This document shows positions 365 through 59,273 of a DNA stretch of 64,000 bases, one piece after another. Made by a program: the position numbers and the translations under genes. Source of the DNA: an uncultured delta proteobacterium (GTDB taxonomy: Bacteria; Desulfobacterota; Syntrophorhabdia; Syntrophorhabdales; Syntrophorhabdaceae); assembly GCA_963746565.1 (NCBI GenBank), contig CAVVCD010000049.1, positions 3,249 to 67,248 of the forward strand, read 5' to 3'. The notes beneath the pieces were generated by a model that saw nothing but the letters and a program-made list of their open reading frames with translations, had not been told where the DNA came from and did not search any database. Each line of letters starts with the position of its first letter. Position 1 is the first letter of the stretch.

Positions 365-437
365 TGCCGAGGGACGGAATTGAACCGCCGACACGGGGAT
401 TTTCAGTCCCCTGCTCTACCGACTGAGCTACCTCGGC
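365..437 (-). tRNA. tRNA-Phe (anticodon GAA)
   Basis: Reverse complement folds as a cloverleaf: GCCGAGG-TA-GCTC-AGTCGGTA-GAGC-A-GGGGA-CTGAAAA-TCCCC-GTGTC-GGCGG-TTCAATT-CCGTC-CCTCGGC-A. CCA is not encoded. Confidence 0.93.
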
Positions 438-10558: not shown

Positions 10559-11092
10559 TTAGGGTAGCGGTGCGAAGTGAGCTCTTCTGTTCTTCGCCCA
10601 GCATTCTTCGTTCTTCTCGGTGCAGACAGGCCTTTCTTTACCATAGCTAATTGTATCCATAGACTTGCCATCAACGCCGAGGTTTACAAGGTAGTTCTTT
10701 GTGGAATCTGCTCTCTTCTGACCGAGGACAAGGTTGTACTCCACGGTGCCCCTCTCATCGCAGTTTCCTTCTATTCTAACCCTTTTTCCCTGATTGGCCT
10801 TGAACCATCCAAGATTGCCCTTGAGTGTCTCTGCATCCATCGGCCTTATGTTGTATTTGTCAAAGTCGAAATTGACATCTTTCAGCATCACGACCGGTGC
10901 AGGTGCTGGAGCTGGAGCTGGTGCAGGAGCAACAGGAACTTCTTTTTTCACTTCAGGTGGAGCTGCTTTTGGTGGAGGCGGCGGCGGTGCAGGGGTTTCT
11001 CCCTTGGCTGCCTGCTGAAAACATCCACATCCACTCAGGAAAGCTCCAAATACAAAGACAATCAATATAAGCCCAAACATCTTTAGTTTCAT
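10559..11092 (-). CDS. pal: Peptidoglycan-associated lipoprotein (OmpA-like domain)
   Basis: Lipobox LSGCG, a Pro/Ala linker (PAPAPAPAPAP), and an OmpA-like C-terminus (FDFDKYNIRP...NLVLGQKRA...NRRAHF). Confidence 0.85.
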   Translation of the reverse strand: MKLKMFGLILIVFVFGAFLSGCGCFQQAAKGETPAPPPPPPKAAPPEVKKEVPVAPAPAPAPAPAPVVMLKDVNFDFDKYNIRPMDAETLKGNLGWFKANQGKRVRIEGNCDERGTVEYNLVLGQKRADSTKNYLVNLGVDGKSMDTISYGKERPVCTEKNEECWAKNRRAHFAPLP

Positions 11093-18072: not shown

Positions 18073-19561
18073 CTATTGTTCTAGCTTAATTGGTAACTTC
18101 ACCTTAAAGGTGGTGCCTTTTCCTACCTTGCTGTCCACCTCAATATGTCCAAAGTGTGACTCCACAATCCTTTTCACAATGGAAAGCCCAAGGCCTGTTC
18201 CCGTTATGTACCTCGTATCGGGTCCGCAAACGCGGTAAAACTCTTCAAAAATGCTTGACAGGTGTTCCTTGTCGATGCCGATGCCTGTATCGGCAATTTT
18301 GATGTTCAGGTAATGGTTGCTTGGGACCGCGCTAATCGTAACCTTTCCTTTTGCCACGTTATACTTAATTGCATTTGAAATAAGGTTCGTGAATAACTGC
18401 TCCATTTCCGCCCGGTCTGCCTCCACAAGGGGAAGTTTTTCCGGCAAGTCCATCTTAAACTTAATCTCATTCGCTTCACCCTGGTTTTTCAGAAGCTCTA
18501 CGGTGCTTATAATGATACCGGTTAAATCAAGGAGCTCTTTTTTTCTCTCAACACGTTTACACTCGAGCCTGCTGAACTGAAGAAGGTCGTTCACGAGATC
18601 AAGGAGCGAATGGGTCCTTGTCTTTGCCCTCTCAAGCATCTGGCGATTCATCTGTGGATCATTTCCTGCAGCACCGCTTAAATACGCAGAAAGGTAGCCT
18701 TCCACGGCTGACAGGGGAGCACGCAACTCATGGGTCACCATGGAAACAAACTGGGATTTTACCTGGTCGAGTTCTTTCAGGCCCGTTATGTCCCGAAGTG
18801 TGCTCACAACTCCAAGTTCCTGCCCATCTGTGTCCCGGATTGCCGACACGTTTACCATCAGTGTTTTTGGTGCAGGCTTTGTCAACTCTATCTCCTCAGA
18901 CATTGCCGTGTAACGGGAAGAGTCAGGCAACAAGGCTCTTGTTCATGAGATCTACCAGGTTTTTTTCCTTGATGACCTCCCCGATGTTCTTGCCAACTTC
19001 GAGCTTCACGTTCAGGTTAAGCATCTTCAACGCCGCAGGGTTCCAAAGAACCAGCTGATGCTCCTTATTCGTCACAAGAATCCCGTCGGCCATAGAGTTA
19101 ACGATGGTGTGGATCTTCGACTCCTCACGGGCAACTTCAAGAAGCTTTTGATCCCTCTCCTCCATAAGCCTCTGGGCCTGGAGACTGAGGCGTCTCTTTT
19201 CAAGGCCCCTGTTTACAACAGCAATGACCTGGTCAGGAGCGAATGGCTTTGGCATATAGTCGTATGCCCCGTGTTTCATTGCATCAACGGCCGTCTCGAT
19301 CGTTGCAAATCCGGTAATGACGATCATGATGATTTCCGGGTCAAACTTTCTCACCTCTTCCATCATCTCAAGGCCACCCATGACAGGCATCATGAGATCA
19401 ACCAGTATGAGATCAAAAGGCCTTGACTTAACGAGCTTCAGCCCTTCTTCGCCATTCTCTGCCACATCGACGGTGTAGCCTTCGCTTATAAGGATTCGGC
19501 GGCACCCTTCCCGGATACCCCTCTCGTCATCAACGACCAGTATGTTTGATTCCTCAGCCAC
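18073..19561 (-). pseudogene. REC-PAS-HisKA-HATPase kinase split into two ORFs (18923..19561 and 18073..18933)
   Basis: The upstream ORF holds the receiver (DDERGI...DLMMP...K) plus the N-terminal half of a PAS fold. The downstream ORF begins with the PAS beta-strands G-I (EEIEL..TLMVNVSAIRD..ELGVVSTLRDIT), then HELRAPL and the HATPase. The frames differ by one within 18923-18942. Confidence 0.7.
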
Positions 19562-19581: not shown

Positions 19582-19986
19582 CTATCCTTGTGCAGATCGA
19601 GCCAGAAGCTCATTGATCTTCTTTATAAGATCCTCAGGCAACAGTGGTTTACTGGCATAATCGTCGGTCTTCATCCAGTAGCCGTCAAGCTCCTGGGAGA
19701 AATCCATACCAGTCTCGCTCGACACTGCGGTGAGCATGAGAATCGGAGTGTTCTTCGAGGTTGGGTCCGCCTTGAGTGCCTTTGCAAACCCAAAACCCGT
19801 ATCATGCTTCTCCATCATCAGATCAAGAACGATCAGGTCGGGCTGTTCAAACCTGACTCTGTCCAGGCCTTCTGCCCCTGAATAGGCCACCACAACGTCG
19901 AATCCGTTGTTTTCGAGTACGGCCTTATTCAGATCAATAAAATCAACATCGTTGTCAACAAGTAAAATTTTTGTTTTTTTACTCAT
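19582..19986 (-). CDS. Single-domain CheY-like response regulator
   Basis: Receiver motifs DD...D (ILLVDNDVD, LIVLDLMM), T (LTA) and K (SKP). No output domain. Confidence 0.85.
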   Translation of the reverse strand: MSKKTKILLVDNDVDFIDLNKAVLENNGFDVVVAYSGAEGLDRVRFEQPDLIVLDLMMEKHDTGFGFAKALKADPTSKNTPILMLTAVSSETGMDFSQELDGYWMKTDDYASKPLLPEDLIKKINELLARSAQG

Positions 19987-20009: not shown

Positions 20010-22085
20010 TTATATTTTGAATCCATAAACTTTTGCCTTTCCTTCGTCCCCTGCCGTCTCCTCACTCACACTAACAGGCAAGGTAATCACAAACGTACTG
20101 CCCTTCCCTAAATCAGTCTCAACATCAATCTTTCCCTGGTGGCGCTCGATGATACCATAAGAGATAGCCAATCCAAGGCCAGTGCCTTTTTCCTTTGTGG
20201 TAAAGAAAGGGGAAAAGAGTTTGCCCATCACCTCGGGAGGAATACCGGGACCAGTGTCTGCAATTTTGATCTTAATCTGTTTCTTATCAAAGATTGTGCT
20301 GATCGTCAGTTTCCCGTTACCCTCCATGGCTTGAGCCGCGTTCAGTATGATGTTGAGGAATACCTGCTTGAGTTGGGTCTCATCAGCAACGATCGTCTGA
20401 GGCCCCTGATCAAAAGATTTCTTAATCTTGATGTTGTGAAATAAGGATTGATTCACAACCAGGCTGAGCACCTCTTCAAGGATATCGTTGACATTAACCT
20501 CTGAGGCCCTCAGCTTCTTCTCTCTGGCAAAGCTCAGGAGACCCTGGACAATATCTTTCGCCCTGTTGGCCTCGCTTATGACCAGTGCAATATCCTCCCG
20601 TTTCGGATCATCGGGCTCCAAGCTCTTTTGAATTAAATGGGAATAGATCAGGATGGTACCGAGGGGGTTATTGATCTCGTGGGCAACACCGGCTGCTAAC
20701 TGCCCGATGGAGGCTAACTTCTCGGTCCTGATGAGCTGGGTCTGTGCTTGTTCAAGCTCCTGGTGCGATACCTGGAGTTCCCGGTGAGATTTCTCTAACT
20801 GTTGAAAGATCTTCTTGCTCTCTCCAAGCAGGTAAGGTAGGCAATATTCCTCGCGAGCAAGGCCTTGAACAACCGCAATTGCCTTGTCACGGCACGATGG
20901 GTAGCCACAGGCCCTGCAATCCAGATTGTGATTCGGTGGAAGTTTCCCGATTTTCTTCAGCACCGTCCTGATCTCTTCTTCAGTCGGCGAAGGCAATCTT
21001 TGTTCCATGTTTTGAAAGCTCCGTGCCAAGTCAATGTCCTTGAACTTATCAAGCTCTGCCATGACGCTTACAATGTCCTGTTTGGCCATTTCGGATTTGG
21101 TGTACTGGGCAACGATCTGCCTGCGGGCAAGGATTGAGAGGTCACGTTCCGCGAAAGGACCGTCAACGCAGCCATAACAATAAACAAAGTCGAGGAACTT
21201 CCCCTGCATGTAACCTTCAGCCAGTTGTTTGAGTGCCCCGATTGACCGCCTGTAACCTCCTATGACGCTGATCTCATCCGTGAGAACGTCAAAGCTTGGC
21301 CCGATATTCCGGTACAGGCCGCCGATAACAGGGATTATTCTCCCCTGGTACGGTCTCGGCCCATCAAATTCAGTCTCAGGTACGGCTGATTTATTTATGT
21401 CCATCTCATTGATCAGTTTCCTTACGTCAACGAAGGTGATGACCTCATCAATGGAACCTGCTACTTCGGGAGCTACCATTTCCCCCATGCGGGAAAGGCA
21501 AGAGGTGATGTAAACAACCTTCCATTCAGGGCCCTTTAACTGGTGCGCTACCCTGCCAATAGCGATCATTGGAGAAACTACGGGGGCAAGGTTCGGGATG
21601 AGTTGCGGGTAATATTTCTGGACATAAAAAACTATTACCGGACAAAACGAAGAGATGAGGGGACGAGTGGTCTCCTCATGGAGAAGTTTGAAGTACACCT
21701 GGCTAACGAGCTCAGCTCCAAAGGCACCTTCCCAGACTTCATCGAAACCTATTTGCTTGAGTACGCCCACAACCTGCCTTGGAGTTCCGAGGTCTGTCTC
21801 TACGGCGAAGCTTGGATCAAGGACTGCGATAGTTTTCGTTCCCTCGGCAAAGAATTCTTTCACATGGGGAAGACCGCCGTGGTAGGTCAGTGCACCCTGG
21901 GGGCATGCCCTGATACAACCACCACACATAACGCACCGCTCCTGGATAACCCTGAAACCATCTTTCCCCACCTTGATTGCCTTTGCAGGACAAATCTGAA
22001 CGCAGTAGGAACAACGGCGGCACTTACGGTTGTTGACATCAATGTCATAGGGATTTTGTTTTGTATCAAACGTTACGGTTGCCAT
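20010..22085 (-). CDS. Histidine kinase with a 2x[4Fe-4S] ferredoxin, a degenerate [FeFe]-hydrogenase H-domain-like region and a CxxCx4Cx16C Fe-S input
   Basis: CRRCSYCVQICP and CVMCGGCIRACP; SSFCP, TSCLSRMGE and YCYGCVDGP in the order of H-cluster motifs L1-L3; CRACGYPSC-x16-C; a coiled coil; then AHEINNPL and the N/G boxes. Confidence 0.75.
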   Translation of the reverse strand: MATVTFDTKQNPYDIDVNNRKCRRCSYCVQICPAKAIKVGKDGFRVIQERCVMCGGCIRACPQGALTYHGGLPHVKEFFAEGTKTIAVLDPSFAVETDLGTPRQVVGVLKQIGFDEVWEGAFGAELVSQVYFKLLHEETTRPLISSFCPVIVFYVQKYYPQLIPNLAPVVSPMIAIGRVAHQLKGPEWKVVYITSCLSRMGEMVAPEVAGSIDEVITFVDVRKLINEMDINKSAVPETEFDGPRPYQGRIIPVIGGLYRNIGPSFDVLTDEISVIGGYRRSIGALKQLAEGYMQGKFLDFVYCYGCVDGPFAERDLSILARRQIVAQYTKSEMAKQDIVSVMAELDKFKDIDLARSFQNMEQRLPSPTEEEIRTVLKKIGKLPPNHNLDCRACGYPSCRDKAIAVVQGLAREEYCLPYLLGESKKIFQQLEKSHRELQVSHQELEQAQTQLIRTEKLASIGQLAAGVAHEINNPLGTILIYSHLIQKSLEPDDPKREDIALVISEANRAKDIVQGLLSFAREKKLRASEVNVNDILEEVLSLVVNQSLFHNIKIKKSFDQGPQTIVADETQLKQVFLNIILNAAQAMEGNGKLTISTIFDKKQIKIKIADTGPGIPPEVMGKLFSPFFTTKEKGTGLGLAISYGIIERHQGKIDVETDLGKGSTFVITLPVSVSEETAGDEGKAKVYGFKI

Positions 22086-22312
22086 TATTCACTTTAAAGT
22101 GCTTGTATTGGTACTAAATTGTTACAATTTTACACCGAAATCAAGCCCTGAGTCAACGGAGGTAATTAAACCGATTGAAGATTTATGAAACCATGAACTT
22201 ATCAAGGTCGATTGTAAAGCAAAAAACCTCAACTGTTACGGCATTTTGCTATGGTAGATTGTGTGACAATTACCCCTTGCCATATCCATAAACTATGCTA
22301 AGAATATAGTAA

Positions 22313-22798
22313 TTGGTATTAATCATGACGGCAATAAAAGGCGTGATGAAAGAGGTTATGATGATCGTGGAGGCCATTGAAGAATCCGATCTCTTCAAAG
22401 GGGTAAGCAAGGAGTTTCTTCATGAGATAGGTAAGGCCGGGGAAGTAAAGCACTGCAAGCGCGACTCATTTATCTTCCACGCCAACGAGAAAGCACGGTA
22501 TGTTTATCAGCTCATTGAGGGTACCATAGACATAATGATGGCCGAGAAAGAGATCATTCACTTCACTGTTACCAGGCCCGGTGAAATAATCGGATGGTCT
22601 GCCCTCGTTGAGCCATACACATATACTGCCACCGCAAAGTGCACATCTGACACGAGGGTTGTGAAATTATCAAGGGAGTCCCTCGAGAAGATCATCATGA
22701 AACACCCTTCTGACGGGCTAGCCATACTAAAGCATCTCACCGGCATCATTTCCCATCGCCTCCGCCACGCCTATTTGTATATTTACAATAAAGGATAA
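22313..22798 (+). CDS. Stand-alone cyclic-nucleotide-binding (Crp/CAP effector) domain protein without an HTH
   Basis: cNMP beta-barrel pattern (LFKGVSKEFL..., GEIIGWSALV). The start (TTG 22313 or a downstream ATG) is uncertain. Confidence 0.6.
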   Translation: MVLIMTAIKGVMKEVMMIVEAIEESDLFKGVSKEFLHEIGKAGEVKHCKRDSFIFHANEKARYVYQLIEGTIDIMMAEKEIIHFTVTRPGEIIGWSALVEPYTYTATAKCTSDTRVVKLSRESLEKIIMKHPSDGLAILKHLTGIISHRLRHAYLYIYNKG

Positions 22799-22830
22799 AA
22801 TTCAAGCAGGAAGCCCATGTTGCCGGCCAT

Positions 22831-22867
22831 AGGCTATGGGCTATAGGAACGGCAGCTCATAGCTCAT
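22831..22867. repeat. Heptamer words aggctat gggctat ... agctcat agctcat
   Basis: Units at 22831-22844 and 22854-22867, downstream of the stop at 22798. Confidence 0.6.
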
Positions 22868-23083
22868 TGCTGAAAGGTATTAAGTAACCGTGTCACAAGG
22901 CCGATAAGAGGGGTGAGCAAAAACACCTATGGTATCGGTTTTCATATTAATTATACTCCTGGTTATTCTCCTGACGATTTTCGTCGGCAGGGCAACAGAA
23001 TTGATCATCATGAAGATTCAAGAAAAAAACATGCGCCCTGTTATGGAAAAAAACCTCGAGCAGGAGTCTATCAATCCTGCCCA

Positions 23084-23890
23084 TCAGCCTTCTCCATGAA
23101 AAAGGTCATGTAACCACTCAATGCTCCGGTAGGAGGCTGCCATAAAACTTGTTACCGGCTCATTCTTCTGGTCTTTAGGAAAAACTTCGAGCGTTAGAGA
23201 ACCCTGGTAGGTTTTGACAGGCAACCAGCGCATTATCTCTTCCCAGTTCAGTACTCCCAATCCAGGCAACCAGTGGCGATCGTGTACCCCATCGTTGTCC
23301 CCCAGATGGGTCACCATGAGTCGATGCCCCCATCGTTCGAGCAATGCTCCCGGTTTGGGACTGTAGAGAAAATCATGGGAAGTGTCGTAACAGAATCCAA
23401 GATGGTCAGACTGAATGTTTGAAAAAATAAGATCCAGCAAGGCTGGCTGCATGGTGTTTTCAACTACTACCTTCACATCAGAATCCTCTGCAAACTTGAT
23501 GAGATCCATCAGGGCAATAAGCCCCTCAGCGGCGGGACTTTCCGGTTGCTCACCTTTGCTCTGGCTCGCATGTATGACAAGAAAAGGTATAGAATGTCTC
23601 TTGCACAAATCTACATATGATCGATAGACACGCCTCCATTCCTCACGCCTGGTCTCAGATCCTGACCATACATCGTTACATCCTATGTCGGGCGCATGGA
23701 TATACTCCAGAAAAAGGCCCCTGGAACGGATAAGACCTGGAAGGAGATCGGCCTTGCCCTTGCCCACAAGTTCCTCCTCAGGGCCAAGCCAGAATCCGGT
23801 GGCAGAAAAACCTGCCTCCTTGATGAGATCAAGCCTCTCCTCAAAGGGCATGGGGTACCCAAACCAGGAAAACATGCTGAATCTACTCAC
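23084..23890 (-). CDS. Sugar phosphate isomerase/epimerase, xylose-isomerase-like TIM barrel
   Basis: Size and motif pattern (VVVENT, HLGFCYDTSH, HLGDNDG) fit the AP-endonuclease-2/TIM family. Confidence 0.6.
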   Translation of the reverse strand: MSRFSMFSWFGYPMPFEERLDLIKEAGFSATGFWLGPEEELVGKGKADLLPGLIRSRGLFLEYIHAPDIGCNDVWSGSETRREEWRRVYRSYVDLCKRHSIPFLVIHASQSKGEQPESPAAEGLIALMDLIKFAEDSDVKVVVENTMQPALLDLIFSNIQSDHLGFCYDTSHDFLYSPKPGALLERWGHRLMVTHLGDNDGVHDRHWLPGLGVLNWEEIMRWLPVKTYQGSLTLEVFPKDQKNEPVTSFMAASYRSIEWLHDLFHGEG

Positions 23891-23991
23891 ACAATTTCTC
23901 CTGTTTTCGTGTACAGATGCTTTCAGGTAAATAAAAAGGCTGCATTGCCTAAACAGACAATACAGCCTCGAAGGTTACATTTAGCCCACCA

Positions 23992-25413
23992 TTATTGCTT
24001 CCCTGTCGTCAGGTATTCGTGCATTGCACGGGCTGCTTTTCTGCCGGCACCCATGGCGAGGATGACGGTGGCAGCGCCGGTTACGATATCGCCACCGGCC
24101 CATACCCGGTCACGGGTAGTTTTGCCGGTTTCAGGATCGGCAACGATGGTGCCGTGTCGTGTCGTATCCAGACCCGTGGTGGTTGATGGAACCAATGGGT
24201 TGGGGCTATTACCAATGGCGCACACTACTGCGTCCATCTCCATTCTGAAATTAGAATTCGGTATTTCAATCGGGCGTCTTCTTCCGGAGGCATCCGGCTC
24301 CCCGAGTTCCATCTTCAAACACTCGATCTCTTTGAGCCAGCCATTTTCATCCCCGATATACCGGACAGGAAGGGTCAGCATGTTGAAAATCACGCCCTCT
24401 TCCTCGGCGTTCTCACTCTCTTCAAGACGGGCAGGAAGTTCAGCGTGGGAGCGCCTGTATATGATCCTTGATTCATCCGCACCCATGCGTAGCGCTGTCC
24501 GTGCCGAATCCATGGCCACGTTGCCACCTCCAACCACTGCAACCTTTTTATGCCTTCTAATGGGTGTCCTCGACAAGGGGTACTTGTATCCCTGCATCAG
24601 GTTCATCCTGGTGAGGTACTCATTTGCAGAGTAGACACCGTTCAGATTTTCTCCTGGTATGTCCATGAACCAGGGAAGCCCGGCTCCTGTTCCGATAAAT
24701 ACTGCGTCGAATTTCTCAAGGAGTTCATCCATGGAGCGTGTCTTTCCCACAACAAAATCGGTTATCACCTTGACACCCAGTTTTCCCACGTATTCAACTT
24801 CCCGTGCAACGATGGCTTTTGGCAACCTGAACTCGGGAATACCATACGTTAAAACCCCACCGGCCTTATGGAGCGCCTCATAAATTGTGACCTCATGACC
24901 GAGGAGAATCAGGTCACCGGCAACCGTCACCCCAGCGGGTCCTGAGCCGACAACAGCAACCTTCTTCCCTGTAGACCTTGCTTTCGGTGGGAGATCAACC
25001 TCGCCTTGCCCTGCTTCCCAGTCAGCAAGGTAGCGCTCCAGGCGGCCAATGGCAACCTCCGCCCCCTTGTTTTTCAATATGCACTGGGCTTCACACTGGC
25101 TTTCCTGGGGGCACACCCTTCCACAAACCGCAGGGAGGCAGTTCTTTTCTTTTAACTTCCGGATACCTCCCCTGAAATCTCCCTTAACGATGAAGGAAAT
25201 GAAATCGGGTATGTCGATCTCGACAGGACACCCGGTCTTACACCGCGGCTTTTTGCACTGGAGGCAGCGACTCGCTTCGGCAATCGCTAGTTCCTCTGTG
25301 TACCCGAGGGCAACCTCGTTGAAATTGTGACTTCGCATTTCCGGAGACTGCTTCGGCATATCGCGACGATTTGTATCGATCTTGCTCTGTTTTTCCTCGC
25401 TCATGAGTGACAC
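23992..25413 (-). CDS. NfnB/SudA/GltD-like NADPH-dependent oxidoreductase subunit
   Basis: CLQCKKPRCKTGCP, CGRVCPQESQCEAQC, VAVVGSGPAGVT, VVGGGNVAMD and GGDIVTGAATVI motifs. Confidence 0.88.
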   Translation of the reverse strand: MSLMSEEKQSKIDTNRRDMPKQSPEMRSHNFNEVALGYTEELAIAEASRCLQCKKPRCKTGCPVEIDIPDFISFIVKGDFRGGIRKLKEKNCLPAVCGRVCPQESQCEAQCILKNKGAEVAIGRLERYLADWEAGQGEVDLPPKARSTGKKVAVVGSGPAGVTVAGDLILLGHEVTIYEALHKAGGVLTYGIPEFRLPKAIVAREVEYVGKLGVKVITDFVVGKTRSMDELLEKFDAVFIGTGAGLPWFMDIPGENLNGVYSANEYLTRMNLMQGYKYPLSRTPIRRHKKVAVVGGGNVAMDSARTALRMGADESRIIYRRSHAELPARLEESENAEEEGVIFNMLTLPVRYIGDENGWLKEIECLKMELGEPDASGRRRPIEIPNSNFRMEMDAVVCAIGNSPNPLVPSTTTGLDTTRHGTIVADPETGKTTRDRVWAGGDIVTGAATVILAMGAGRKAARAMHEYLTTGKQ

Positions 25414-26258
25414 TTACCCCCTTTGTGTAATATGGGCTTTGGTTCACTGTGCCGGAAATATGATGTCTCTTCATTCATATACTGCTTCCTTCGCGCCAGA
25501 AATTCTTTCCAGTCTACTTCGTGGCCGTTAAACTCAGGGCCATCAACACAGGCAAACTTCATTTTATCCCCTACCGTGACACGGCAGACGCCGCACATGC
25601 CTGTCCCGTCAATCATGATTGGGTTTAGATTGACTACTGTTGGGATTCCCATGCTTTTTGTAATCTCTGATGTGTGGGCCATCAGGTATGTACAGCCATT
25701 CACAATAATCCTGTCAGGCGGGTTGGGTAGACCGTGTATAATATCCGCCAGGCGTGTGATATGGCCCTTCATACCAAGACTTCCATCCCGGGTAATGTTA
25801 AAAATCTTCGAGACATGGCCCACATATCGATCTGCCCAGTACAGAAGGTAGGAACTTCGCGCTTCGAGAACCATGATGATCTGATTTCCTGCATACCACA
25901 GTTCACGGGCTACCGGATATATACTGCCGATCCCGTAGCATCCTGCAATGCACATCACTGTTCCATATTTCTTGATTTCTGTGGCATTACCAAGGGGGCC
26001 AACACATGTGGGGATTGTATCCCCTGGTTTAAGCTCAGCAAGGGTCCCGGTGGATGCCCCAACTTCCATGAAGATGATAGTAACGGTTCCTTTCTCAAGG
26101 TCCCAGTCAGCAACAGACAAGGGGATGCGCTCCCCCTCCTCGCTCGCTCGAACGATGACAAACTGCCCCGGTTTGATCTTGGATGCTATTTCCGGCGCTT
26201 CCAGGGTAAGGAGGTGCATATTGGGAACAATCATGGTGCGTTCAATTACTTTATTCAT
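25401..26258 (-). CDS. NfnA/SudB-like FAD/NAD(P)-binding [2Fe-2S] subunit
   Basis: Ferredoxin-reductase fold with GTGMCGVCRVTVGDKMKFACVDGPEF. Overlaps its neighbours by 13 nt and 4 nt. Confidence 0.85.
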   Translation of the reverse strand: MNKVIERTMIVPNMHLLTLEAPEIASKIKPGQFVIVRASEEGERIPLSVADWDLEKGTVTIIFMEVGASTGTLAELKPGDTIPTCVGPLGNATEIKKYGTVMCIAGCYGIGSIYPVARELWYAGNQIIMVLEARSSYLLYWADRYVGHVSKIFNITRDGSLGMKGHITRLADIIHGLPNPPDRIIVNGCTYLMAHTSEITKSMGIPTVVNLNPIMIDGTGMCGVCRVTVGDKMKFACVDGPEFNGHEVDWKEFLARRKQYMNEETSYFRHSEPKPILHKGGKCHS

Positions 26259-28522
26259 TGTGCCTCCTTATCTGAAAAGGATGTTGCCTTGACCCACTCC
26301 TCAATAACCTGCATGCCTGCAACTACCTGCCCGAGGGGTATGCCACGGTAAAAAGCGTTCATGGCAACCGGGAGACTCTCCGGGTCAATTTTGATCGGTC
26401 CCTTCAGCCATTTTCCAGCGTCTTTGAATTCGAACTTTGCAAACTCCACTCTCTTTTTCCCGACATGGAAATCATTGATCTGTTTCTTGATCTCCCCCTG
26501 GATTGAAGCGATATCCTTGTATTTAAATTTCCCTTTTTTCATCTTGTCTGCAATCCTTGTCAGTATCCACCAATCGGGCTTCGTATCCATGTACCGTTCT
26601 GTCGCCTTTTCGAGCCTGAGAACCCTGCCCTCCACATTGATAGTCGTACCGGGTGACTCAGGAAAGAGGCTTGTTGGAAGAATCAGATCAGGTTGCCGCG
26701 CAGATGATGGCGGTATGGCGTTTTGGTAAATGAGGTAGTCACAGTCCGGTATGATGTCAAATCGACCCTCTCCTATGAGATAAACTAGTTTTTTCCGTTT
26801 TGTGAGATCAGTTGTCGGTATGGTAAGTTTTACGCTACCCGCTTCAGCCTTCAGGAGTAATCCAGGTTTAATGCCGGGGAACACACCCATGGAGAGCATG
26901 CCCAGAAGGTTTGTGTATGGGTGGGCGACTATGACTTTCCAGGCAAACCGGTCTCTTAAGATGCGAACCCGTTCAAACACCTCGCGCCGTTGGGATGAGA
27001 AGATTACCTCAGGTCCCACAATCAGCACATTTGCAGATGATTGAGCGAACGAACCGGCAACGGCTGCCAAATCACCGTTCCACTCCTTGCCTCCTTTACC
27101 CTTACCTTTGCCGACCTTGGAAAGACCGTCAATGAGTGCATCGAGGAAGCCAGGCCAACGAGGTGAATCCATCTTGAATGATGCCTCCGACAGCATGTCG
27201 AGATTTGAATCACAGGAACCAAGGGTCACCAGTGTGGCGCCTTTCTGGGCGGCCCTCTTTGCGGCTATGCCAATGGGGGTATAACCGTAGGTCGAATCAA
27301 ACCCCATTGCGAGGATTCCCTGGGCCATTTCAATTGAATCATAGGTGCTTGTATGAACAACAAGGTCGAGGAAAGGTGCAAAATCATTGCTTAAGTCAAC
27401 CATCATTGACGACAGTATCATCTCTGAGCCAAGGGCCTGTCTCACAAACTGCTGGGCCACAAAAAGATCCTCGTTTGACAACTGTGGCGAAACCATTACG
27501 AGGATATCGTCCGGTTTTAAACCCGACATCTTCTCTGCTGCCGTATCGATGGCCTGATCCCACGATATGACTTCGTATCCCACAGGGGTCATCCTCTGGG
27601 GAACCGTAAATCGTTGCGGGCTATTCACATACTCGGGTATGGCAAATCTCCCTTTTACACAGATAAGGCCCTGGTCCACAACAGAATCATAATCAGGCAG
27701 GACATCGATAACCTCGTCGTTTTTAACCTGAAGCATGAGACGGCAGCCTGATGAGCAGAATGTGCAGGTAGTCGCGACCTTTGCATCCGCCATTCCATAC
27801 CATTTACTCACCTTTGTCGACAGGGCTCCTGTCGGGCAGACAGAGACACAGGCCCCGCAGAATTCACAACCTGCTTCTAAATGGGTACGGTCGAAGGCAG
27901 GTCCGATGGTGGTTAGTTTGCCTCTCTGTTTGAATGCCAGTGTGCCATTCAGGCGAACGCTGTTACATACACGCACACAACGGCCGCACAGGATGCAGAG
28001 GTTATAATCCCTATCGTAAAATGGATCATTTTTCTCCACGGGAAAACCACGATAGTAAACCGGGTAGGAAGTCTCAGTAAGACCTACCTTATCGACAATT
28101 TCCTGGAGCTCGCAACTGGCATCATTGGGACAGTATCTACAGCCCGTGGTTACACCGACCTTGCGTATGGTCCCCATGTATTTCTTGCACTCATCGTGCT
28201 CATCGCAGAAGAGGCAGCTTGCAGGGTGCTCGCTCAAAAGCAGTTTAAGGATTTCCTGCCTTAGACCCCTTATCTCTGTCGTATCTGTCCGAATGACCAT
28301 ACCAGCCTCAACAGGGGTTGTGCATGATGTGGGAAACCCTCTCAATCCGTCCACCTCTACTATGCAGAGTCGGCACGCTCCGTAGGAAGGCAGATGTTCA
28401 AGAGTACACATGGAGGGGATATAGATGTTGTTGTCGCGGGCGGCCTGCAGTATTGTGCTATTCGGTCGCACCTCAACCTGTTTGTTGTCAATAGTAACGG
28501 ATATCTTTTTTTCTTTTGTCAT
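26255..28522 (-). CDS. NuoG/HydA-N-terminal-like polyferredoxin with a degenerate molybdopterin-oxidoreductase domain (non-catalytic)
   Basis: 2Fe-2S region (CTLEH..GACRLC..C), HPASCLFCDEHDEC, CILCGRCVRVC, CEFCGACVSVCP and CTFCSSGC...C. No Cys/Sec active-site motif and no H-cluster motifs were recognised. Confidence 0.75.
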   Translation of the reverse strand: MTKEKKISVTIDNKQVEVRPNSTILQAARDNNIYIPSMCTLEHLPSYGACRLCIVEVDGLRGFPTSCTTPVEAGMVIRTDTTEIRGLRQEILKLLLSEHPASCLFCDEHDECKKYMGTIRKVGVTTGCRYCPNDASCELQEIVDKVGLTETSYPVYYRGFPVEKNDPFYDRDYNLCILCGRCVRVCNSVRLNGTLAFKQRGKLTTIGPAFDRTHLEAGCEFCGACVSVCPTGALSTKVSKWYGMADAKVATTCTFCSSGCRLMLQVKNDEVIDVLPDYDSVVDQGLICVKGRFAIPEYVNSPQRFTVPQRMTPVGYEVISWDQAIDTAAEKMSGLKPDDILVMVSPQLSNEDLFVAQQFVRQALGSEMILSSMMVDLSNDFAPFLDLVVHTSTYDSIEMAQGILAMGFDSTYGYTPIGIAAKRAAQKGATLVTLGSCDSNLDMLSEASFKMDSPRWPGFLDALIDGLSKVGKGKGKGGKEWNGDLAAVAGSFAQSSANVLIVGPEVIFSSQRREVFERVRILRDRFAWKVIVAHPYTNLLGMLSMGVFPGIKPGLLLKAEAGSVKLTIPTTDLTKRKKLVYLIGEGRFDIIPDCDYLIYQNAIPPSSARQPDLILPTSLFPESPGTTINVEGRVLRLEKATERYMDTKPDWWILTRIADKMKKGKFKYKDIASIQGEIKKQINDFHVGKKRVEFAKFEFKDAGKWLKGPIKIDPESLPVAMNAFYRGIPLGQVVAGMQVIEEWVKATSFSDKEAQ

Positions 28523-30399
28523 GGTCTCTTCTCCGCACTTCTTATCACAATAGCGTCACCGGCGATGGCCTCAAAACGGCAAATCTCGTAACAGGATCGG
28601 CACTTTATACATTTGCTGGCGTCGAGGTTGTGAGGTTCAGATCGTGGCCCGGTGATTGCGCCCGTCGGACAAGCCCTCACACACGATTGGCAACCGGTAC
28701 ACTTTTCTTTAATAACCCGGTACTCGATCAGGTCCTTACACACAGTGGCCCGGCAACGGTTGTCTTTTATGTGCTCAAGGTATTCATTCCTGAAATACCG
28801 AAGCGTTGTGAGGACAGGGTTTGGCGCCGTCTGACCGAGGCCGCAGAGGGAGCCCTTTTTGATGGTATCGCCCAGGGTTCGCAAGGCCAGGAGGTCTTCC
28901 GGTGTACCCTCGCCGTGGGTAATCTTTTCTAGTATCTCCACCATGTGCCTTGTTCCCACGCGACACGGGACACATTTGCCACACGACTCTTTCTGGGTAA
29001 AATCGAGGAAATACCTGGCAATGTCCACGATGCACGTATCATCGTCCATGATAATGAGACCACCGGATCCCATGATAGAACCCGCAGATGCCAGGGATTC
29101 ATAATCGACAGGGAGGTCAAGAAATTCCTCAGACAGGCAGCCTCCGGATGGTCCCCCTGTTTGAATCGCCTTGAAATTCTTCTGAACACCGCCCCCGATA
29201 TCGAAAATAATCTCCCGGAGTGTGGTGCCGAGCTGAACTTCAATCAACCCCGGACGTCGTATTTTGCCGACAAGAGAGAAGGTCTTTGTTCCCCGGTTTC
29301 CCTCCTTGCCGTATTTTGTGTACCACTCTGCCCCATTGCGCAGTATATTCGGGAGCGTTCCCATTGTCTCTACGTTGTTGATAATTGTCGGGGATCCGTA
29401 GAGCCCTGATATGGCAGGAAATGGTGGACGGGAACGGGGCATTCCCCGTTTCCCCTCTATGGAACCGATAAGCGCAGTCTCTTCACCGCACACAAAAGCA
29501 CCTGCGCCCTCCTTGATCTTAATCTCAAAACTGAACTTCGAGTCAAGAATCTTGTCGCCAAGGAGCCCGTATTCCCGCATCTGTGCTATGGCGTTTTTGA
29601 GCCGTTCTATGGCGAGGGGGTATTCAGCCCTGATGTAGATGATGCCCTTGCTTGCCCCGATAGCGTACCCGGCAATCAGCATTCCCTCAAGTACCGCGTG
29701 GGGATCCGATTCGATAAGTGACCTGTTCATGAACGCCCCGGGGTCACCTTCGTCGGCGTTGCATATGAGGTACTTTTGTTCACCCGGCGCATTCCTGCAG
29801 ACAGTCCATTTCTTGAAGGTTGGAAAACCGGCACCGCCCCGGCCCCGCAAACCTGCCTGGCGGACCACACCGATCACATCATCAGGAGACATTTTTAATG
29901 CATTCATCAAACCCTGGTAGCCGTCAAGAGCAAGATACTGATCGATGTCTTCCGGGTCGACAAAACCGCAGTTACGTAATACAATCCTTACCTGCGGCTT
30001 GAGCATGGGAAGGTCAAAGAACCTCGGAACGTCATGAAAAGATTCTTTTCCGAAATTTCCCAGGGCAAGCTTCGCATGAGGAACGCCTCCCAGCAACTCG
30101 GATTTGAGGATAATGGGAAGTGTTTTTTCCGTGACGTTGTTGTAGCTCACCCGGGGTTGCCCGGGAAGCTTTATATCCATAAGAGGTTCCAGGTAGCAAG
30201 GCCCGATACATCCAACCTGGATAACCTTGGCAGAAACCTTGTTTTCTATAAGAAATTCATCGATCCCCTTCAGTACGTCCAGTGCTCCTGCTGCCCTCCC
30301 ACAGGATGCTGCCCCTACATAGATGATAGGGTCCTTGTTGTTCTCAAGCTCCTCCCATTTTTTCTTAGCCAGTGATATTTTTTTATTTAGCTTATTCAT
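28519..30399 (-). CDS. NuoF/HydB-like NAD(H)-binding flavoprotein, bifurcating type, with an extra N-terminal thioredoxin-like domain and a C-terminal 2x[4Fe-4S] domain
   Basis: GRGGAGFPT (FMN/NADH), ESCGKCVPCRVG (N3 cluster), and C-terminal CTGCQSCVRACP and CIKCRSCYEIC. Confidence 0.88.
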   Translation of the reverse strand: MNKLNKKISLAKKKWEELENNKDPIIYVGAASCGRAAGALDVLKGIDEFLIENKVSAKVIQVGCIGPCYLEPLMDIKLPGQPRVSYNNVTEKTLPIILKSELLGGVPHAKLALGNFGKESFHDVPRFFDLPMLKPQVRIVLRNCGFVDPEDIDQYLALDGYQGLMNALKMSPDDVIGVVRQAGLRGRGGAGFPTFKKWTVCRNAPGEQKYLICNADEGDPGAFMNRSLIESDPHAVLEGMLIAGYAIGASKGIIYIRAEYPLAIERLKNAIAQMREYGLLGDKILDSKFSFEIKIKEGAGAFVCGEETALIGSIEGKRGMPRSRPPFPAISGLYGSPTIINNVETMGTLPNILRNGAEWYTKYGKEGNRGTKTFSLVGKIRRPGLIEVQLGTTLREIIFDIGGGVQKNFKAIQTGGPSGGCLSEEFLDLPVDYESLASAGSIMGSGGLIIMDDDTCIVDIARYFLDFTQKESCGKCVPCRVGTRHMVEILEKITHGEGTPEDLLALRTLGDTIKKGSLCGLGQTAPNPVLTTLRYFRNEYLEHIKDNRCRATVCKDLIEYRVIKEKCTGCQSCVRACPTGAITGPRSEPHNLDASKCIKCRSCYEICRFEAIAGDAIVIRSAEKRP

Positions 30400-30841
30400 A
30401 GTCTTTTAATTGCTCCGTTAGTTTGTTTACTGTCACCCTGCTGTATATCTCTTTATCTATCTGGACAACAGGGGACAATGCGCAGCAGCCGAGGCAGGCA
30501 ACCCTCTCCAGGTCATACCGTTTGTCCGGTGTTGTTTCGCCGCAACTGATACCTAACCCTCGCTCCAGCATCTCAAGCAAGGTGGCGCCTCCCCTAACGT
30601 GGCAAGCTGTACCGAGACAGACTTTTACCGCGTGACGGCCTGGTACGGTGAATCGAAACTGCGCATAGAACGAAGAAACACCATAGATCTGGTTTTCTGT
30701 GATGCGGAGATATCTCGAAATCCTTTTTACCGATTCAGGAGAAATGTATCCGTACTCTTTTTGCACATCCTGCAGAATCGGTATTAACTCATCCTGTTTC
30801 CTGTTGTGTCTTGCAAAAATTGTCTCGATCGGTTCAGGCAT
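30392..30841 (-). CDS. NuoE/HydC-like thioredoxin-fold [2Fe-2S] subunit
   Basis: CLGTACHV...CLGCC cluster motif. Start set at ATG 30841, preceded by AAGGAGAG. The ORF-track extension to 30949 has no support. Confidence 0.85.
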   Translation of the reverse strand: MPEPIETIFARHNRKQDELIPILQDVQKEYGYISPESVKRISRYLRITENQIYGVSSFYAQFRFTVPGRHAVKVCLGTACHVRGGATLLEMLERGLGISCGETTPDKRYDLERVACLGCCALSPVVQIDKEIYSRVTVNKLTEQLKDYE

Positions 30842-31010
30842 AGTGCTCTCCTTAAGACCACGCTTTACGTGGGTACTGGAATTTGAAACATTGAGTAAGT
30901 ACTTTCTTGTTCCACAGAGATGTGGCGTTTGATTGAAATGGATAAACAAAAAGGGCTTCTTTCCCTTTTACCATAACCCCCCTTTTACACCAACTACAAC
31001 AACTACACCA

Positions 31011-38310: not shown

Positions 38311-38316
38311 GGGTAT

Positions 38317-59201: not shown

Positions 59202-59273
59202 TGGGGTGTCGTCAAGCGGTAAGACTCAGGCCTTTGGAGCCTGCATTCGGAGGTTCGAATCCTCCCACCCCAG
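59202..59273 (+). tRNA. tRNA-Gln (anticodon UUG)
   Basis: TGGGGTG-TC-GTC-AAGCGGTAA-GAC-T-CAGGC-CTTTGGA-GCCTG-CATTC-GGAGG-TTCGAAT-CCTCC-CACCCCA-G. Confidence 0.92.

What the first reader, a model, noticed from the sequence alone, without database searches (positions are those of the whole stretch)
20010..22085. Sensor kinase with a degenerate [FeFe]-hydrogenase H-domain and three extra Fe-S modules as its input
Two ferredoxin motifs (CRRCSYCVQICP, CVMCGGCIRACP) are followed by segments in the order of H-cluster signatures L1-L3, but altered. SSFCP replaces TSCCP, so the proton-relay Cys becomes Phe. TSCLSRMGE replaces MPCxxKxxE, with Lys changed to Arg. YCYGCVDGP replaces MxCxxGCxxGG, shortening the Cys spacing by one residue. 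A CxxCx4Cx16C motif (CRACGYPSC...C), a coiled coil and HisKA/HATPase follow. The gene heads a same-strand string containing a CheY-like receiver, a REC-PAS kinase and a fused NfnAB gene. It lies 1.9 kb from the NuoEFG/NfnAB operon. Sensory hydrogenase-like proteins are known as a class. This divergent version could be an H2 sensor or a redox/ferredoxin-pool sensor controlling the bifurcation genes. No DNA-binding output protein is encoded nearby.
Basis: partly seen in the sequence, partly recalled or inferred. Interest (0 to 1): 0.65.

Follow-up and report, generated by a model that had tools for sequence, protein, structure and literature searches.

The report
Hydrogenase-like sensor kinase linked to Nfn genes
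This Syntrophorhabdus gene is a cytoplasmic sensor kinase whose input is a "sensory" iron-hydrogenase domain, a kind already noted in genome surveys but never tested; it belongs to a sub-branch with a changed metal-site pocket that sits beside NADPH/ferredoxin transhydrogenase (Nfn) genes instead of a hydrogenase.

Summary
Window 20010-22085 (-) encodes a 691-aa protein. It has two ferredoxin-type [4Fe-4S] motifs, an [FeFe]-hydrogenase H-domain (Pfam PF02906, E 1e-37; Foldseek E ~1e-18 to CpI and HydA), a Cx2Cx4Cx16C Fe-S domain, a helical linker and a ZraS-like HisKA/HATPase kinase.

It belongs to the putative sensory group C [FeFe]-hydrogenase lineage. Kinase-fused forms have already been noted in Elusimicrobia and Hydrogenedentota.

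All four cluster-ligand Cys are conserved.

The distinctive part is the sub-clade. It is monophyletic (NJ bootstrap 97), with Asp at CpI-A230, Phe at C299 and Arg/Gln/His, never Lys, at K358.
- Lys-type relatives: a catalytic HydA lies directly upstream in 32 of 51 loci.
- This clade: HydA upstream in 0 of 8 loci, and a fused NfnAB gene downstream in 10 of 12.

The trio of sensor kinase, CheY-like receiver and REC-PAS-kinase is conserved throughout. No DNA-binding output is encoded nearby.

Most likely it senses H2 or low-potential redox and is tied to Nfn. Whether it still holds the diiron subcluster is unresolved.

The parts
20010..22085 (-). Sensor histidine kinase with a hydrogenase-like input domain, 691 aa (whole gene).
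   Evidence: ORF and translation; Pfam domains; 120 close homologues with the same architecture.
21879..22037 (-). N-terminal 2x[4Fe-4S] ferredoxin-like domain. Ligands are C22/25/28/32 and C51/54/57/61.
   Evidence: Pfam Fer4 family hits. All eight Cys are invariant in 56 clade members.
21156..21824 (-). H-domain (residues 88-310). The ligand Cys are C148, C196, C303 and C306, equivalent to CpI C300, C355, C499 and C503. Pocket residues are D90 (A230), F147 (C299), T194 (M353), R199 (K358) and E202 (E361).
   Evidence: PF02906 E 1.3e-37; alignments to 8a6t, 7p5h and 7qv7; Foldseek matches; residue census.
20835..20924 (-). C-terminal Cx2Cx4Cx16C putative [4Fe-4S] domain (C390, C393, C398, C415).
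   Evidence: PF04060 E 5e-9. The motif is present in 120 of 120 homologues. It is the unifying feature of groups C and D (PMC8163306, PMC13104023).
20706..20843 (-). Helical (coiled-coil-like) linker. It runs from the last cluster ligand, C415, into the DHp helix. There is no PAS domain.
   Evidence: The model has helices at 415-444 and 452-488, at low pLDDT. No PAS hit in Pfam.
20523..20705 (-). HisKA/DHp domain with the phospho-acceptor H469 (nt 20679-20681, H-box AHEINNPL).
   Evidence: Pfam. H469 is invariant in 120 of 120 homologues. Best fold match is ZraS 9jfj.
20073..20384 (-). HATPase_c catalytic domain. The N, G1 (DTGPGI), F and G2 (GTGLGL) boxes are present.
   Evidence: Pfam E 1.7e-26; sequence.
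22127..22156 (-). Promoter-like TTGACT-N18-TAAAAT about 45 nt before the ATG. Its -35 element is invariant in eight clade loci.
   Evidence: Consensus scan; alignment of upstream regions.
19582..19986 (-). Single-domain CheY-like receiver, 134 aa, starting 23 nt after the sensor gene.
   Evidence: Pfam Response_reg E 1e-17. A REC gene directly follows the sensor in 11 of 12 DF-type and 53 of 78 Lys-type loci.
18073..19561 (-). REC-PAS-HisKA-HATPase kinase. It is split here into 212-aa and 286-aa ORFs by one extra base at about 18938, and is an intact 495-496 aa in relatives.
   Evidence: Pfam. Intact in L002, L004, L006 and L008. Indel mapped. The extra base is absent in DNA contig X1 and RNA contig X25.
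15769..18027 (-). Fused NfnA-NfnB-like gene (752 aa), the last gene of the string.
   Evidence: NCBIfam PRK12778, 1148 bits; Pfam. Downstream of the sensor in 10 of 12 DF-type loci and 0 of 78 Lys-type loci.
23992..30949 (-). Upstream partner operon: NuoE-like, NuoF-like, a NuoG-like protein (Fe-S N-terminus plus a molybdopterin-type domain, no H-domain), NfnA-like and NfnB-like. It is a Bfu-type module without a hydrogenase.
   Evidence: Pfam and NCBIfam. Only residues 1-230 of the NuoG-like protein match HydA. The same order is found in L001, L004, L006-L008 and L016.

Best explanation
The gene encodes a soluble sensor histidine kinase of the 'sensory' group C [FeFe]-hydrogenase lineage, in the form fused directly to the kinase without a PAS domain.

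Shown:
- A hydrogenase fold with all four H-cluster cysteine ligands.
- Three accessory [4Fe-4S] motifs.
- An intact kinase.
- A conserved three-gene signalling module: sensor kinase, CheY-like receiver, REC-PAS-kinase.
- Membership of a monophyletic sub-clade that has swapped its genomic partner from a bifurcating HydABC hydrogenase to Nfn-type transhydrogenase genes.

Inferred mechanism:
1. The H-domain site reacts with H2, as shown for TmHydS and TamHydS, or equilibrates with the low-potential electron pool.
2. The two N-terminal clusters connect this site to ferredoxin or a partner complex.
3. The resulting redox or conformational state passes through the C-terminal cluster, whose last ligand C415 sits at the start of the helix that runs into the DHp domain.
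4. This sets autophosphorylation of H469.
5. Phosphate goes to the adjacent CheY-like receiver and to the receiver of the REC-PAS-kinase, which relays to an output encoded elsewhere.
6. In this syntroph the physiological link is to Nfn/Bfu electron-carrier balancing rather than to hydrogenase expression.

I rate the family and architecture assignment at about 0.9. I rate 'the signal is H2, read by a complete H-cluster' at about 0.45. The confidence given below is for the whole statement.
For: Fold and motifs.

Family placement: the input domain aligns end to end with the HydDB 'group C1' reference from T. wiegelii (28% identity, 132 bits). It scores only 54 bits against a group A3 HydA of the same genus.

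Family norms in the 151 nearest 50%-identity representatives: the Cys ligands are kept in 148-149; position C299 is A/P/S/T/C/N/F/H; position M353 is G/S/T. These agree with the published descriptions of sensory enzymes that do bind an H-cluster (PMC10055695, PMC8163306).

Clade conservation in 120 sequences of at least 61% identity: four of four Cys, E202 and H469.

H-cluster supply: S. aromaticivorans has two group A3 hydrogenases. MAG PtaB.Bin006 holds both a DF-type sensor (L003) and HydCBA.

An Asp230/Arg358 relative (L011) lies between hydA and hydE/hydG, so Arg at position 358 is compatible with a hydrogenase and maturase context.

Module and context statistics. Clade monophyly, bootstrap 97.

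Transcription: metatranscriptome contigs cover the sensor, REC, second kinase and NfnAB, and some cross the gene junctions.
Against: The clade has no Lys at either position 358 or 359. Position 358 toggles between R (56), Q (41) and H (23), although K358 contacts the distal CN ligand (PMC10147833). A bulky Phe is fixed at the position facing the azadithiolate amine, and Asp replaces the cavity residue A230.

No catalytic hydrogenase or HydE/F/G gene lies in the 64-kb window, nor within 10 kb in any of the 12 DF-type loci.

No cofactor or ligand was measured. In TamHydS the C-terminal cluster did not respond to H2 (PMC13104023), so the transmission route is uncertain.

No output regulator is identified. 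In this assembly the second kinase is frameshifted.
Confidence: 0.5

Rival explanations
1. Cubane-only redox sensor. The H-domain keeps the [4Fe-4S] subcluster but no longer binds the diiron subcluster. The four Fe-S clusters equilibrate with ferredoxin or with the NuoEFG-Nfn complex. The kinase then reports ferredoxin/NAD(P)H redox poise rather than H2.
For: Clade-specific loss of Lys358 (R/Q/H), fixed Phe at C299 and Asp at A230. All three are cavity or CN-contact positions (PMC10147833).

Genomic partner: HydA is upstream in 0 of 8 DF-type loci against 32 of 51 Lys-type loci. NfnAB is downstream in 10 of 12 against 0 of 78. Maturase genes lie nearby in 0 of 12 against 21 of 78.

The partner 'BfuA' protein has itself lost the H-domain.

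A relative, L012, has even lost the bridging Cys (C503->G) and sits next to NfnB.

There is a precedent for an H-domain holding only a [4Fe-4S] cluster: HydA of the NiFe-Bfu hydrogenase (PMC9304861). The Hydrogenedentota authors also doubted H2 sensing for kinase-bearing C1 proteins (PMC11406978).
Against: All four Cys, E361, P231 and P324 are retained. Position 358 is always a long H-bond donor, never hydrophobic.

The Asp230/Arg358 combination also occurs in a sensor flanked by hydA and hydE/G (L011). Phe at position 299 occurs in Lys-type members as well (P0180 and P0254).

Position 299 is variable in enzymes shown to bind the cofactor (PMC10055695). The lineage can make H-clusters.

The context statistics rest on a single clade, which is effectively one evolutionary event.
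Confidence: 0.3
2. Regulatory subunit of the enzyme complex. The protein docks on the NuoE/NuoF/NuoG-like-Nfn (Bfu-type) complex through its N-terminal clusters, like the proposed 'BfuT' subunit. It reads electron flux directly, and the phosphorelay acts post-translationally through the single-domain receiver rather than on transcription.
For: The sensor directly follows the last structural gene of a Bfu-type operon in most loci. Group C proteins were called a T subunit of BfuABC in Hydrogenedentota (PMC11406978). No DNA-binding response regulator is found in any of the roughly 90 contexts; only REC and REC-kinase genes are present.
Against: The sensor has its own conserved promoter-like element, and a strong terminator-like hairpin follows NfnB. 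No interaction data exist. TmHydS and TamHydS behave as separate proteins in the cited studies.
Confidence: 0.1
3. Oxygen or oxidative-stress sensor. The four exposed Fe-S clusters are degraded or oxidised by O2 or ROS. This switches the kinase and adjusts NADPH supply through Nfn for detoxification.
For: Fe-S clusters commonly serve as O2/NO sensors (general knowledge; introduction of PMC13104023). Nfn produces NADPH. The organism is a strict anaerobe found in wetland and soil metagenomes.
Against: Nothing specific points to O2. The family as a whole is tied to hydrogenase and maturase genes. An entire hydrogenase fold would not need to be conserved for a simple cluster-loss switch.
Confidence: 0.05

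Closest known systems
Kinase-fused group C [FeFe]-hydrogenase-like proteins noted in Elusimicrobia (bioRxiv 10.1101/765248) and Hydrogenedentota (HydDB 'C1' with HATPase_c; PMC11406978)
   Same: The same domain order: Fe-S, H-domain, Fe-S motif, then a histidine kinase with no PAS. They are uncharacterised and were described as having H-cluster motifs that are hard to recognise. Here, 48 of the 151 nearest representatives carry the fused kinase.
   Different: Those proteins sit beside group A3 HydABC hydrogenases and Rex. The relatives sampled here mostly have A230, G353 and K358-K359. The window protein belongs to a separate clade with D230, F299 and R/Q/H at 358, and it is linked to Nfn genes.
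TmHydS (Thermotoga maritima; group C, subclass M2f), a characterised putative H2 sensor
   Same: Two N-terminal [4Fe-4S] clusters, an H-domain without the proton-relay Cys, a small residue at M353, and a C-terminal Cx2Cx4Cx16C cluster (PMC8163306, PMC10055695).
   Different: TmHydS ends in a PAS domain and has no kinase. According to the papers it keeps the residues that H-bond the [2Fe] ligands. It has Ala at C299 and Gly at M353, where the window protein has Phe and Thr.
TamHydS (Thermoanaerobacter mathranii; group D, subclass M2e; its T. wiegelii orthologue is filed as 'C1, histidine kinase-linked' in HydDB)
   Same: 28% identity end to end with the T. wiegelii orthologue. A hydroxyl residue (Ser/Thr) at M353. 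No PAS domain. A kinase-type ATPase is part of the system.
   Different: In TamHydS the kinase-like protein is a separate neighbouring gene. It has Lys358 and CxxxC spacing, and it lies upstream of a HydABC operon.
Regulatory [NiFe] hydrogenase with its kinase: HoxBC-HoxJ (Cupriavidus/Ralstonia) and HupUV-HupT (HydDB group 2b)
   Same: It works on the same principle: a low-activity hydrogenase module controls a histidine kinase (PMC5037454 table; PMC5665086).
   Different: Unrelated fold and metal site. Sensor and kinase are separate polypeptides joined through a PAS domain. The output there is a known NtrC-type regulator, and none is known here.
H-domain proteins without the diiron subcluster: eukaryotic Nar1/NARF-type proteins (from memory) and HydA of the bifurcating NiFe-hydrogenase (PMC9304861)
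   Same: A hydrogenase fold that retains the Cys ligands and holds only Fe-S clusters. This is a precedent for the rival reading.
   Different: They have no kinase and different roles (cluster assembly or electron transfer). The nearest sequence relatives of the window protein are bacterial group C sensors, not these proteins.

Membership tests
[FeFe]-hydrogenase superfamily (H-domain) | Fe_hyd_lg_C fold | tested here: met
   PF02906 E 1.3e-37, profile positions 6-245 of 245. Foldseek E ~1e-18 to TmHydA, CbA5H, DdH and CpI over 420-465 columns.
[FeFe]-hydrogenase superfamily (H-domain) | Four Cys ligands of the H-cluster (CpI C300, C355, C499, C503) | tested here: met
   C148, C196, C303 and C306 align to them. 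They are invariant in 120 of 120 clade members and present in 148-149 of 151 representatives.
Catalytic (group A) [FeFe]-hydrogenase | Canonical signatures TSCCP / MPCxxKxxE / ExMxCxxxCxxGG, including the proton-relay Cys299, Met353 and Met497 | tested here: not met
   The protein has SSFCP, TSCLSRMGE and VYCYGCVDGP: Phe for C299, Thr for M353, Val for M497, and one residue fewer between the last two Cys.
Any H-cluster-binding hydrogenase | Lys358 contacting the distal CN ligand | tested here: not met
   The protein has R199. The clade has R (56), Q (41) and H (23), with no Lys at the next position either. Lys is present in 127 of 151 representatives. Role of K358: PMC10147833.
Any H-cluster-binding hydrogenase | Bound [2Fe] subcluster and reactivity with H2 | not testable with these tools
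   This needs FTIR/EPR on purified or artificially matured protein.
Any H-cluster-binding hydrogenase | HydE/HydF/HydG maturases in the same genome | tested here: inconclusive
   None in the 64-kb window. S. aromaticivorans has two group A3 hydrogenases. MAG PtaB.Bin006 has both a DF-type sensor and HydCBA. The full genome of this organism could not be searched.
Sensory group C/D [FeFe]-hydrogenases | N-terminal 2x[4Fe-4S] domain plus a C-terminal Cx2Cx4Cx16C motif flanking the H-domain | tested here: met
   Pfam Fer4 x2 and PF04060. The motif is present in 120 of 120 homologues. Definition of the feature: PMC8163306, PMC13104023.
Sensory group C (subclass M2f, TmHydS type) | PAS domain after the C-terminal cluster | tested here: not met
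   No PAS hit at E <= 0.01. Only 54 helical residues lie between C415 and H469.
Sensory group C/D [FeFe]-hydrogenases | Gene lies next to a group A (usually HydABC) hydrogenase | tested here: not met
   The window has no second H-domain. HydA is directly upstream in 0 of 8 DF-type loci, against 32 of 51 Lys-type relatives.
Sensory group C/D [FeFe]-hydrogenases | Closer in sequence to classified sensory members than to catalytic ones | tested here: met
   132 bits against the HydDB C1 reference, and 54 bits against a group A3 HydA of the same genus. HydDB's own classifier could not be run.
HisKA-type sensor histidine kinase (two-component system) | H-box His plus the N, G1, F and G2 boxes, and an adjacent receiver | tested here: met
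   HisKA E 1.6e-11 and HATPase_c E 1.7e-26. H469 is invariant. The fold matches ZraS 9jfj. A REC gene starts 23 nt downstream and has the DD/D/T/K residues. Phosphotransfer was not tested.
Nar1/NARF-like (diiron-free H-domain proteins) | Nearest relatives are Nar1-type proteins, and the [2Fe] subcluster is absent | tested here: not met
   All near relatives are bacterial group C-type sensors. Absence of the [2Fe] subcluster cannot be tested here.

The most novel reading that the evidence does not exclude
This clade is a hydrogenase-derived sensor that has given up the diiron subcluster and H2 chemistry. It uses the remaining cubane plus three accessory clusters to read ferredoxin/NAD(P)H redox poise. 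Its kinase cascade tunes Nfn/Bfu transhydrogenases in syntrophs. It would have co-evolved with a partner Bfu complex that likewise lost its H-domain. That would make it a bacterial counterpart of Nar1-type 'ex-hydrogenases', recruited here for signalling.
Probability: 0.3. Interest if true: 0.7.

Novelty: new variant of a known kind. Interest (0 to 1): 0.5.

Why it matters
No group C or D 'sensory' hydrogenase has yet been shown to signal. A form fused directly to a histidine kinase gives a one-protein assay: autophosphorylation with or without H2 or reduced ferredoxin.

The Nfn-linked clade described here offers a natural contrast to the HydABC-linked, Lys-type relatives. Comparing the two would show which pocket residues decide between H2 sensing and plain redox sensing.

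For syntrophs such as Syntrophorhabdus, H2 pressure and ferredoxin/NAD(P)H balance set whether growth is possible at all. A dedicated sensor wired to Nfn-type bifurcating enzymes would be a control point of that metabolism.

Tried and rejected
- A sigma-54 promoter upstream of the sensor or of nuoE: no TGGCAC-N5-TTGC match in those intergenic regions, and the window-wide count is no better than shuffles.
- Rfam: only two tRNAs, and no riboswitch or leader near the locus.
- A genome-contig scan with the single protein found only four loci, all close relatives, so it gave the organism (Syntrophorhabdus sp., 98% identity) but no wide taxonomy.
I replaced it with a local HMM for the kinase part.
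- The idea that the CxxC spacing marks degeneration: rejected, because CxGC is the majority form in the family.
- The idea that K358->R alone proves loss of the diiron site: rejected, because a D230/R358 relative lies between hydA and hydE/G.
- The idea that the lineage lacks H-cluster biosynthesis: rejected at genus and MAG level.
- The idea that the REC-PAS-kinase is a real pseudogene: unlikely, because the extra base at 18938 is absent from an independent DNA contig and an RNA contig.
- The Greening 2016 survey is not held in the library.
Full report
**1. What is there.**
Window 20010-22085 (minus strand) is a 691-aa ORF. Pfam finds six elements:
- Two ferredoxin-type 4Fe-4S motifs, residues 21-65.
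- The C-terminal domain of the iron-hydrogenase large subunit (PF02906), residues 88-310, E 1.3e-37.
- The small 'FeS' domain PF04060, residues 388-417.
- HisKA, residues 461-521.
- HATPase_c, residues 568-671.

HMMER alignments to solved hydrogenases (T. kivui HydA1 8a6t, T. maritima HydA 7p5h, HDCR HydA2 7qv7) put SSFCP on TSCCP and ITSCLSRMGE on VMPCIGKKFE. They put YCYGCVDG on ACNYGCVGG with a one-residue deletion.

An AlphaFold model built on 56 homologues has pLDDT 85-97 in the H-domain. It matches [FeFe]-hydrogenases over 420-465 columns at Foldseek E ~1e-18, and its C-terminal third matches the ZraS kinase.

**2. Organism and family.**
The input domain is 98% identical to a protein in an uncultured Syntrophorhabdus MAG and 82-84% identical to proteins in two other Syntrophorhabdus MAGs. 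Near-identical DNA occurs in wetland and soil metagenomes.

In the 5.8-billion-protein set, 2092 proteins match at E < 1e-10. The best 120 (61-100% identity; Syntrophorhabdus and Syntrophus MAGs) all have the same architecture.

In the exhaustive search of 50%-identity representatives, the protein's own cluster is followed by a jump to 41% identity or less. 680 representatives score below 1e-30. Of the 151 nearest, 48 carry a fused kinase. Most others have a tail of about 170 aa, the PAS-bearing TmHydS type.

The input domain aligns end to end with the HydDB 'group C1, histidine kinase-linked' example from Thermoanaerobacter wiegelii (28% identity, 132 bits). It scores only 54 bits against a group A3 HydA of S. 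aromaticivorans.

The layout of N-terminal 2x[4Fe-4S], H-domain without the proton-relay Cys, and C-terminal Cx2Cx4Cx16C is the published definition of the putative sensory groups C and D (PMC8163306, PMC13104023).

Direct fusion to a kinase has been remarked on twice:
- In groundwater Elusimicrobia (bioRxiv 10.1101/765248).
- In Hydrogenedentota, where the authors could hardly find the P1-P3 motifs and doubted H2 sensing (PMC11406978).

No member has been characterised.

**3. How 'degenerate' is the H-domain?**
Against group A signatures it is divergent. Against its own family, mostly not. Among the 151 representatives:
- The four ligand Cys are kept in 148-149.
- The C299 position is A (42), P (26), S (22), T (21), C (13), N (7), F (6), H (6). 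This agrees with the 17% Cys reported for sensory enzymes (PMC10055695).
- M353 is G (136), S (10), T (4).
- The short C-x-G-C spacing is the majority form, 89 against 60.

The real peculiarities belong to the clade. In 120 sequences of at least 61% identity:
- The CpI-A230 position is Asp in 120 of 120.
- C299 is Phe in 118.
- M353 is Thr in 117.
- K358 is Arg (56), Gln (41) or His (23), never Lys, and the next residue is never Lys either.
- E361 is kept in 119.

K358 contacts the distal CN ligand, and A230 lines the cavity (PMC10147833). These are therefore changes in the diiron pocket.

**4. Gene context, surveyed systematically.**
In this window the sensor is followed at 20-45 nt spacings by three genes:
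- A CheY-like receiver.
- A REC-PAS-HisKA-HATPase kinase.
- A fused NfnAB gene (752 aa, PRK12778, 1148 bits).

Upstream lie NuoE-like, NuoF-like, NuoG-like, NfnA-like and NfnB-like genes. The 755-aa NuoG-like protein shares only its Fe-S N-terminus with HydA and carries a molybdopterin-type domain instead of an H-domain. This is a Bfu-type module without a hydrogenase (compare PMC9304861 and PMC11829005).

In species with 62-68% identical sensors the same nine genes are contiguous (L006-L008, L016). Here an AP-endonuclease-fold gene and a divergent cNMP-binding-only gene are inserted between NfnB and the sensor.

I then fetched 80 metagenomic loci of kinase-fused relatives. I scored their flanks by tblastn and their sensors for the key residues.

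| Feature | Lys-type sensors (A230, G353, K358-K359), n = 78 | D230/F299/non-Lys ('DF-type') sensors, n = 12 |
|---|---|---|
| Catalytic HydA directly upstream (loci with at least 2.5 kb of upstream sequence) | 32 of 51 | 0 of 8 |
| NfnB directly upstream (same loci) | 1 of 51 | 6 of 8 |
| hydE/F/G within 10 kb | 21 of 78 | 0 of 12 |
| NfnAB downstream | 0 of 78 | 10 of 12 |

Fisher tests give p = 0.001 for HydA upstream and p = 1e-11 for NfnAB downstream. These values are not corrected for phylogeny.

The DF-type forms one clade (NJ bootstrap 97 of 100). This is therefore effectively one evolutionary switch, conserved down to 40% identity (L009, L017).

Two intermediates are instructive:
- L011 (D230, A299, R358) lies between hydA and hydE/hydG.
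- L012 (D230, Y358) has lost the bridging Cys and follows NfnB.

The sensor-REC-REC/kinase trio is common to both types. No DNA-binding response regulator appears in any context. Rex is a frequent neighbour in the hydrogenase-linked loci.

**5. Can the lineage make an H-cluster?**
The window has no hydA or hydE/F/G. However, HydDB lists two group A3 hydrogenases in S. aromaticivorans. The MAG PtaB.Bin006 carries both a DF-type sensor (L003) and a HydC-HydB-HydA operon on another contig, with no sensor beside it. Supply of the cofactor is therefore plausible, though not proven for this genome.

**6. Expression and operon structure.**
A TTGACT-N18-TAAAAT element sits about 45 nt before the ATG (22156-22127). 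Its -35 hexamer is invariant across eight clade loci. A 15-bp-stem terminator-like hairpin follows NfnB.

Metatranscriptome contigs from sediment and groundwater (93-99% identical) cover the sensor, the receiver, the second kinase, NfnAB and the upstream operon at low depth. Individual pieces cross the REC/sensor junction and the kinase/NfnAB junction. This is consistent with co-transcription, with the caveat that DNA carry-over cannot be excluded.

**7. Mechanism.**
The steps that are shown, and the inferred signalling path, are set out in the Best explanation section. Briefly, the H-domain site reacts with H2 or equilibrates with the low-potential pool. The state is passed through the C-terminal cluster and linker helix to H469, and phosphate goes to the two adjacent receivers. 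TmHydS and TamHydS react with H2 after cofactor loading (PMC10055695, PMC8163306).

The output is unknown. The conserved linkage suggests Nfn/Bfu carrier balancing.

Whether the diiron subcluster is present is open.
- For its presence: the ligands and E361 are retained. Position 358 is always a long H-bond donor. The D230/R358 pair is found in a maturase-flanked relative. Position 299 is variable in proven cofactor binders.
- For its loss: no Lys, a fixed bulky Phe, the partner switch, L012, and the precedent of a cubane-only H-domain in NiFe-Bfu HydA (PMC9304861).

I put the H2/H-cluster reading at about 0.45 and the cubane-only redox reading at about 0.3.

**8. Verdict.**
The class is already known from genome surveys. 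This gene is a member of a previously undescribed sub-clade with an altered pocket and an Nfn rather than hydrogenase linkage, which makes it a new variant of a known kind. Interest is moderate. It does not overturn anything, but it offers a clean experimental handle on the unresolved question of what 'sensory hydrogenases' sense and how they signal.

Noticed in passing
window 18073-19561 (-), indel at about 18938: The REC-PAS-HisKA-HATPase kinase is split into 212-aa and 286-aa ORFs by one extra G (AACAAGAGCC against AACAAAGCC). The gene is an intact 495-496 aa in L002 (98% identical), L004, L006 and L008. The extra base is absent from an independent DNA contig (X1) and an RNA contig (X25), but present in ENA contig L001. 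It is probably an assembly error or a strain variant.
   Followed up: yes
window 23992-30949 (-): A five-gene operon: NuoE-like, NuoF-like, a 755-aa NuoG-like protein (HydA-like Fe-S N-terminus plus a molybdopterin-type domain, no H-domain), NfnA-like and NfnB-like. It looks like a Bfu-type bifurcating module coupled to an NfnSL-like pair rather than to a hydrogenase. It is conserved in order in L001, L004, L006-L008 and L016.
   Followed up: partly
window 22313-23890: A xylose-isomerase/AP-endonuclease-fold gene (23084-23890, -) and a divergent 161-aa protein consisting only of a cNMP-binding domain with no HTH (22313-22798, +) lie between NfnB and the sensor. Both are absent at this position in L006-L008 and L016, where the sensor directly follows NfnB.
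   Followed up: partly
window 22183-22200 (-); L003, L014 and L016 upstream regions: About 30 nt upstream of the conserved -35 element, relatives carry TTGT(A/G)CATATTATCACA. This is a TGTG-N8-CACA palindrome resembling CRP/FNR or Rex operators. In the window the box is degenerate (AAGTTCATGGTTTCATAA).
   Followed up: partly
window 23936-23969 (-): A strong terminator-like hairpin (15-bp stem followed by a T-run) lies right after the NfnB stop codon. It separates the NuoEFG-Nfn operon from the downstream genes.
   Followed up: no
L012 1196-3244: A kinase-fused relative (35% identity; D230, Y358) has Gly in place of the bridging Cys (CpI C503) and follows an NfnB-like gene. It is a candidate for outright loss of the H-cluster site. 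The contig is only 3.4 kb.
   Followed up: partly
L009 2630-14723: In one contig a DF-type sensor with REC, a REC-kinase and fused NfnAB is followed by DRTGG, HATPase, a 422-aa M2e-type (TamHydS-like) hydrogenase-like protein, PHP, HATPase, NuoE and NuoF. Two different sensory-hydrogenase systems therefore lie side by side.
   Followed up: no
L020, L023, L026, L028, L030, L032, L060, L070, L086, L087, L089: Many hydrogenase-linked loci have an NfnB/GltD-like gene between the NuoF-like gene and hydA (NuoE-NuoF-NfnB-HydA-sensor). An Nfn-type subunit was therefore already part of the ancestral neighbourhood.
   Followed up: no
HydDB supplement (PMC5037454) compared with PMC8163306: The HydDB 'group C1, histidine kinase-linked' example (T. 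wiegelii WP_014062652) is a TamHydS-type M2e protein, which later papers call group D. The label 'C1' is therefore used for different things in different papers.
   Followed up: partly
window 36760-40452 (+): A second cNMP-binding protein fused to a methyltransferase-like domain (516 aa) is followed by a PAS-HisKA-HATPase-REC hybrid kinase (711 aa).
   Followed up: no
window 10559-11092 (-): An OmpA/Pal-like lipoprotein has a long Pro/Ala-rich (PAPAPAPA) linker. On the opposite strand a 169-aa ORF shadows it and is probably spurious.
   Followed up: no
window 365-437 (-) and 59202-59273 (+): Two tRNA genes. These are the only Rfam matches in the window.
   Followed up: no
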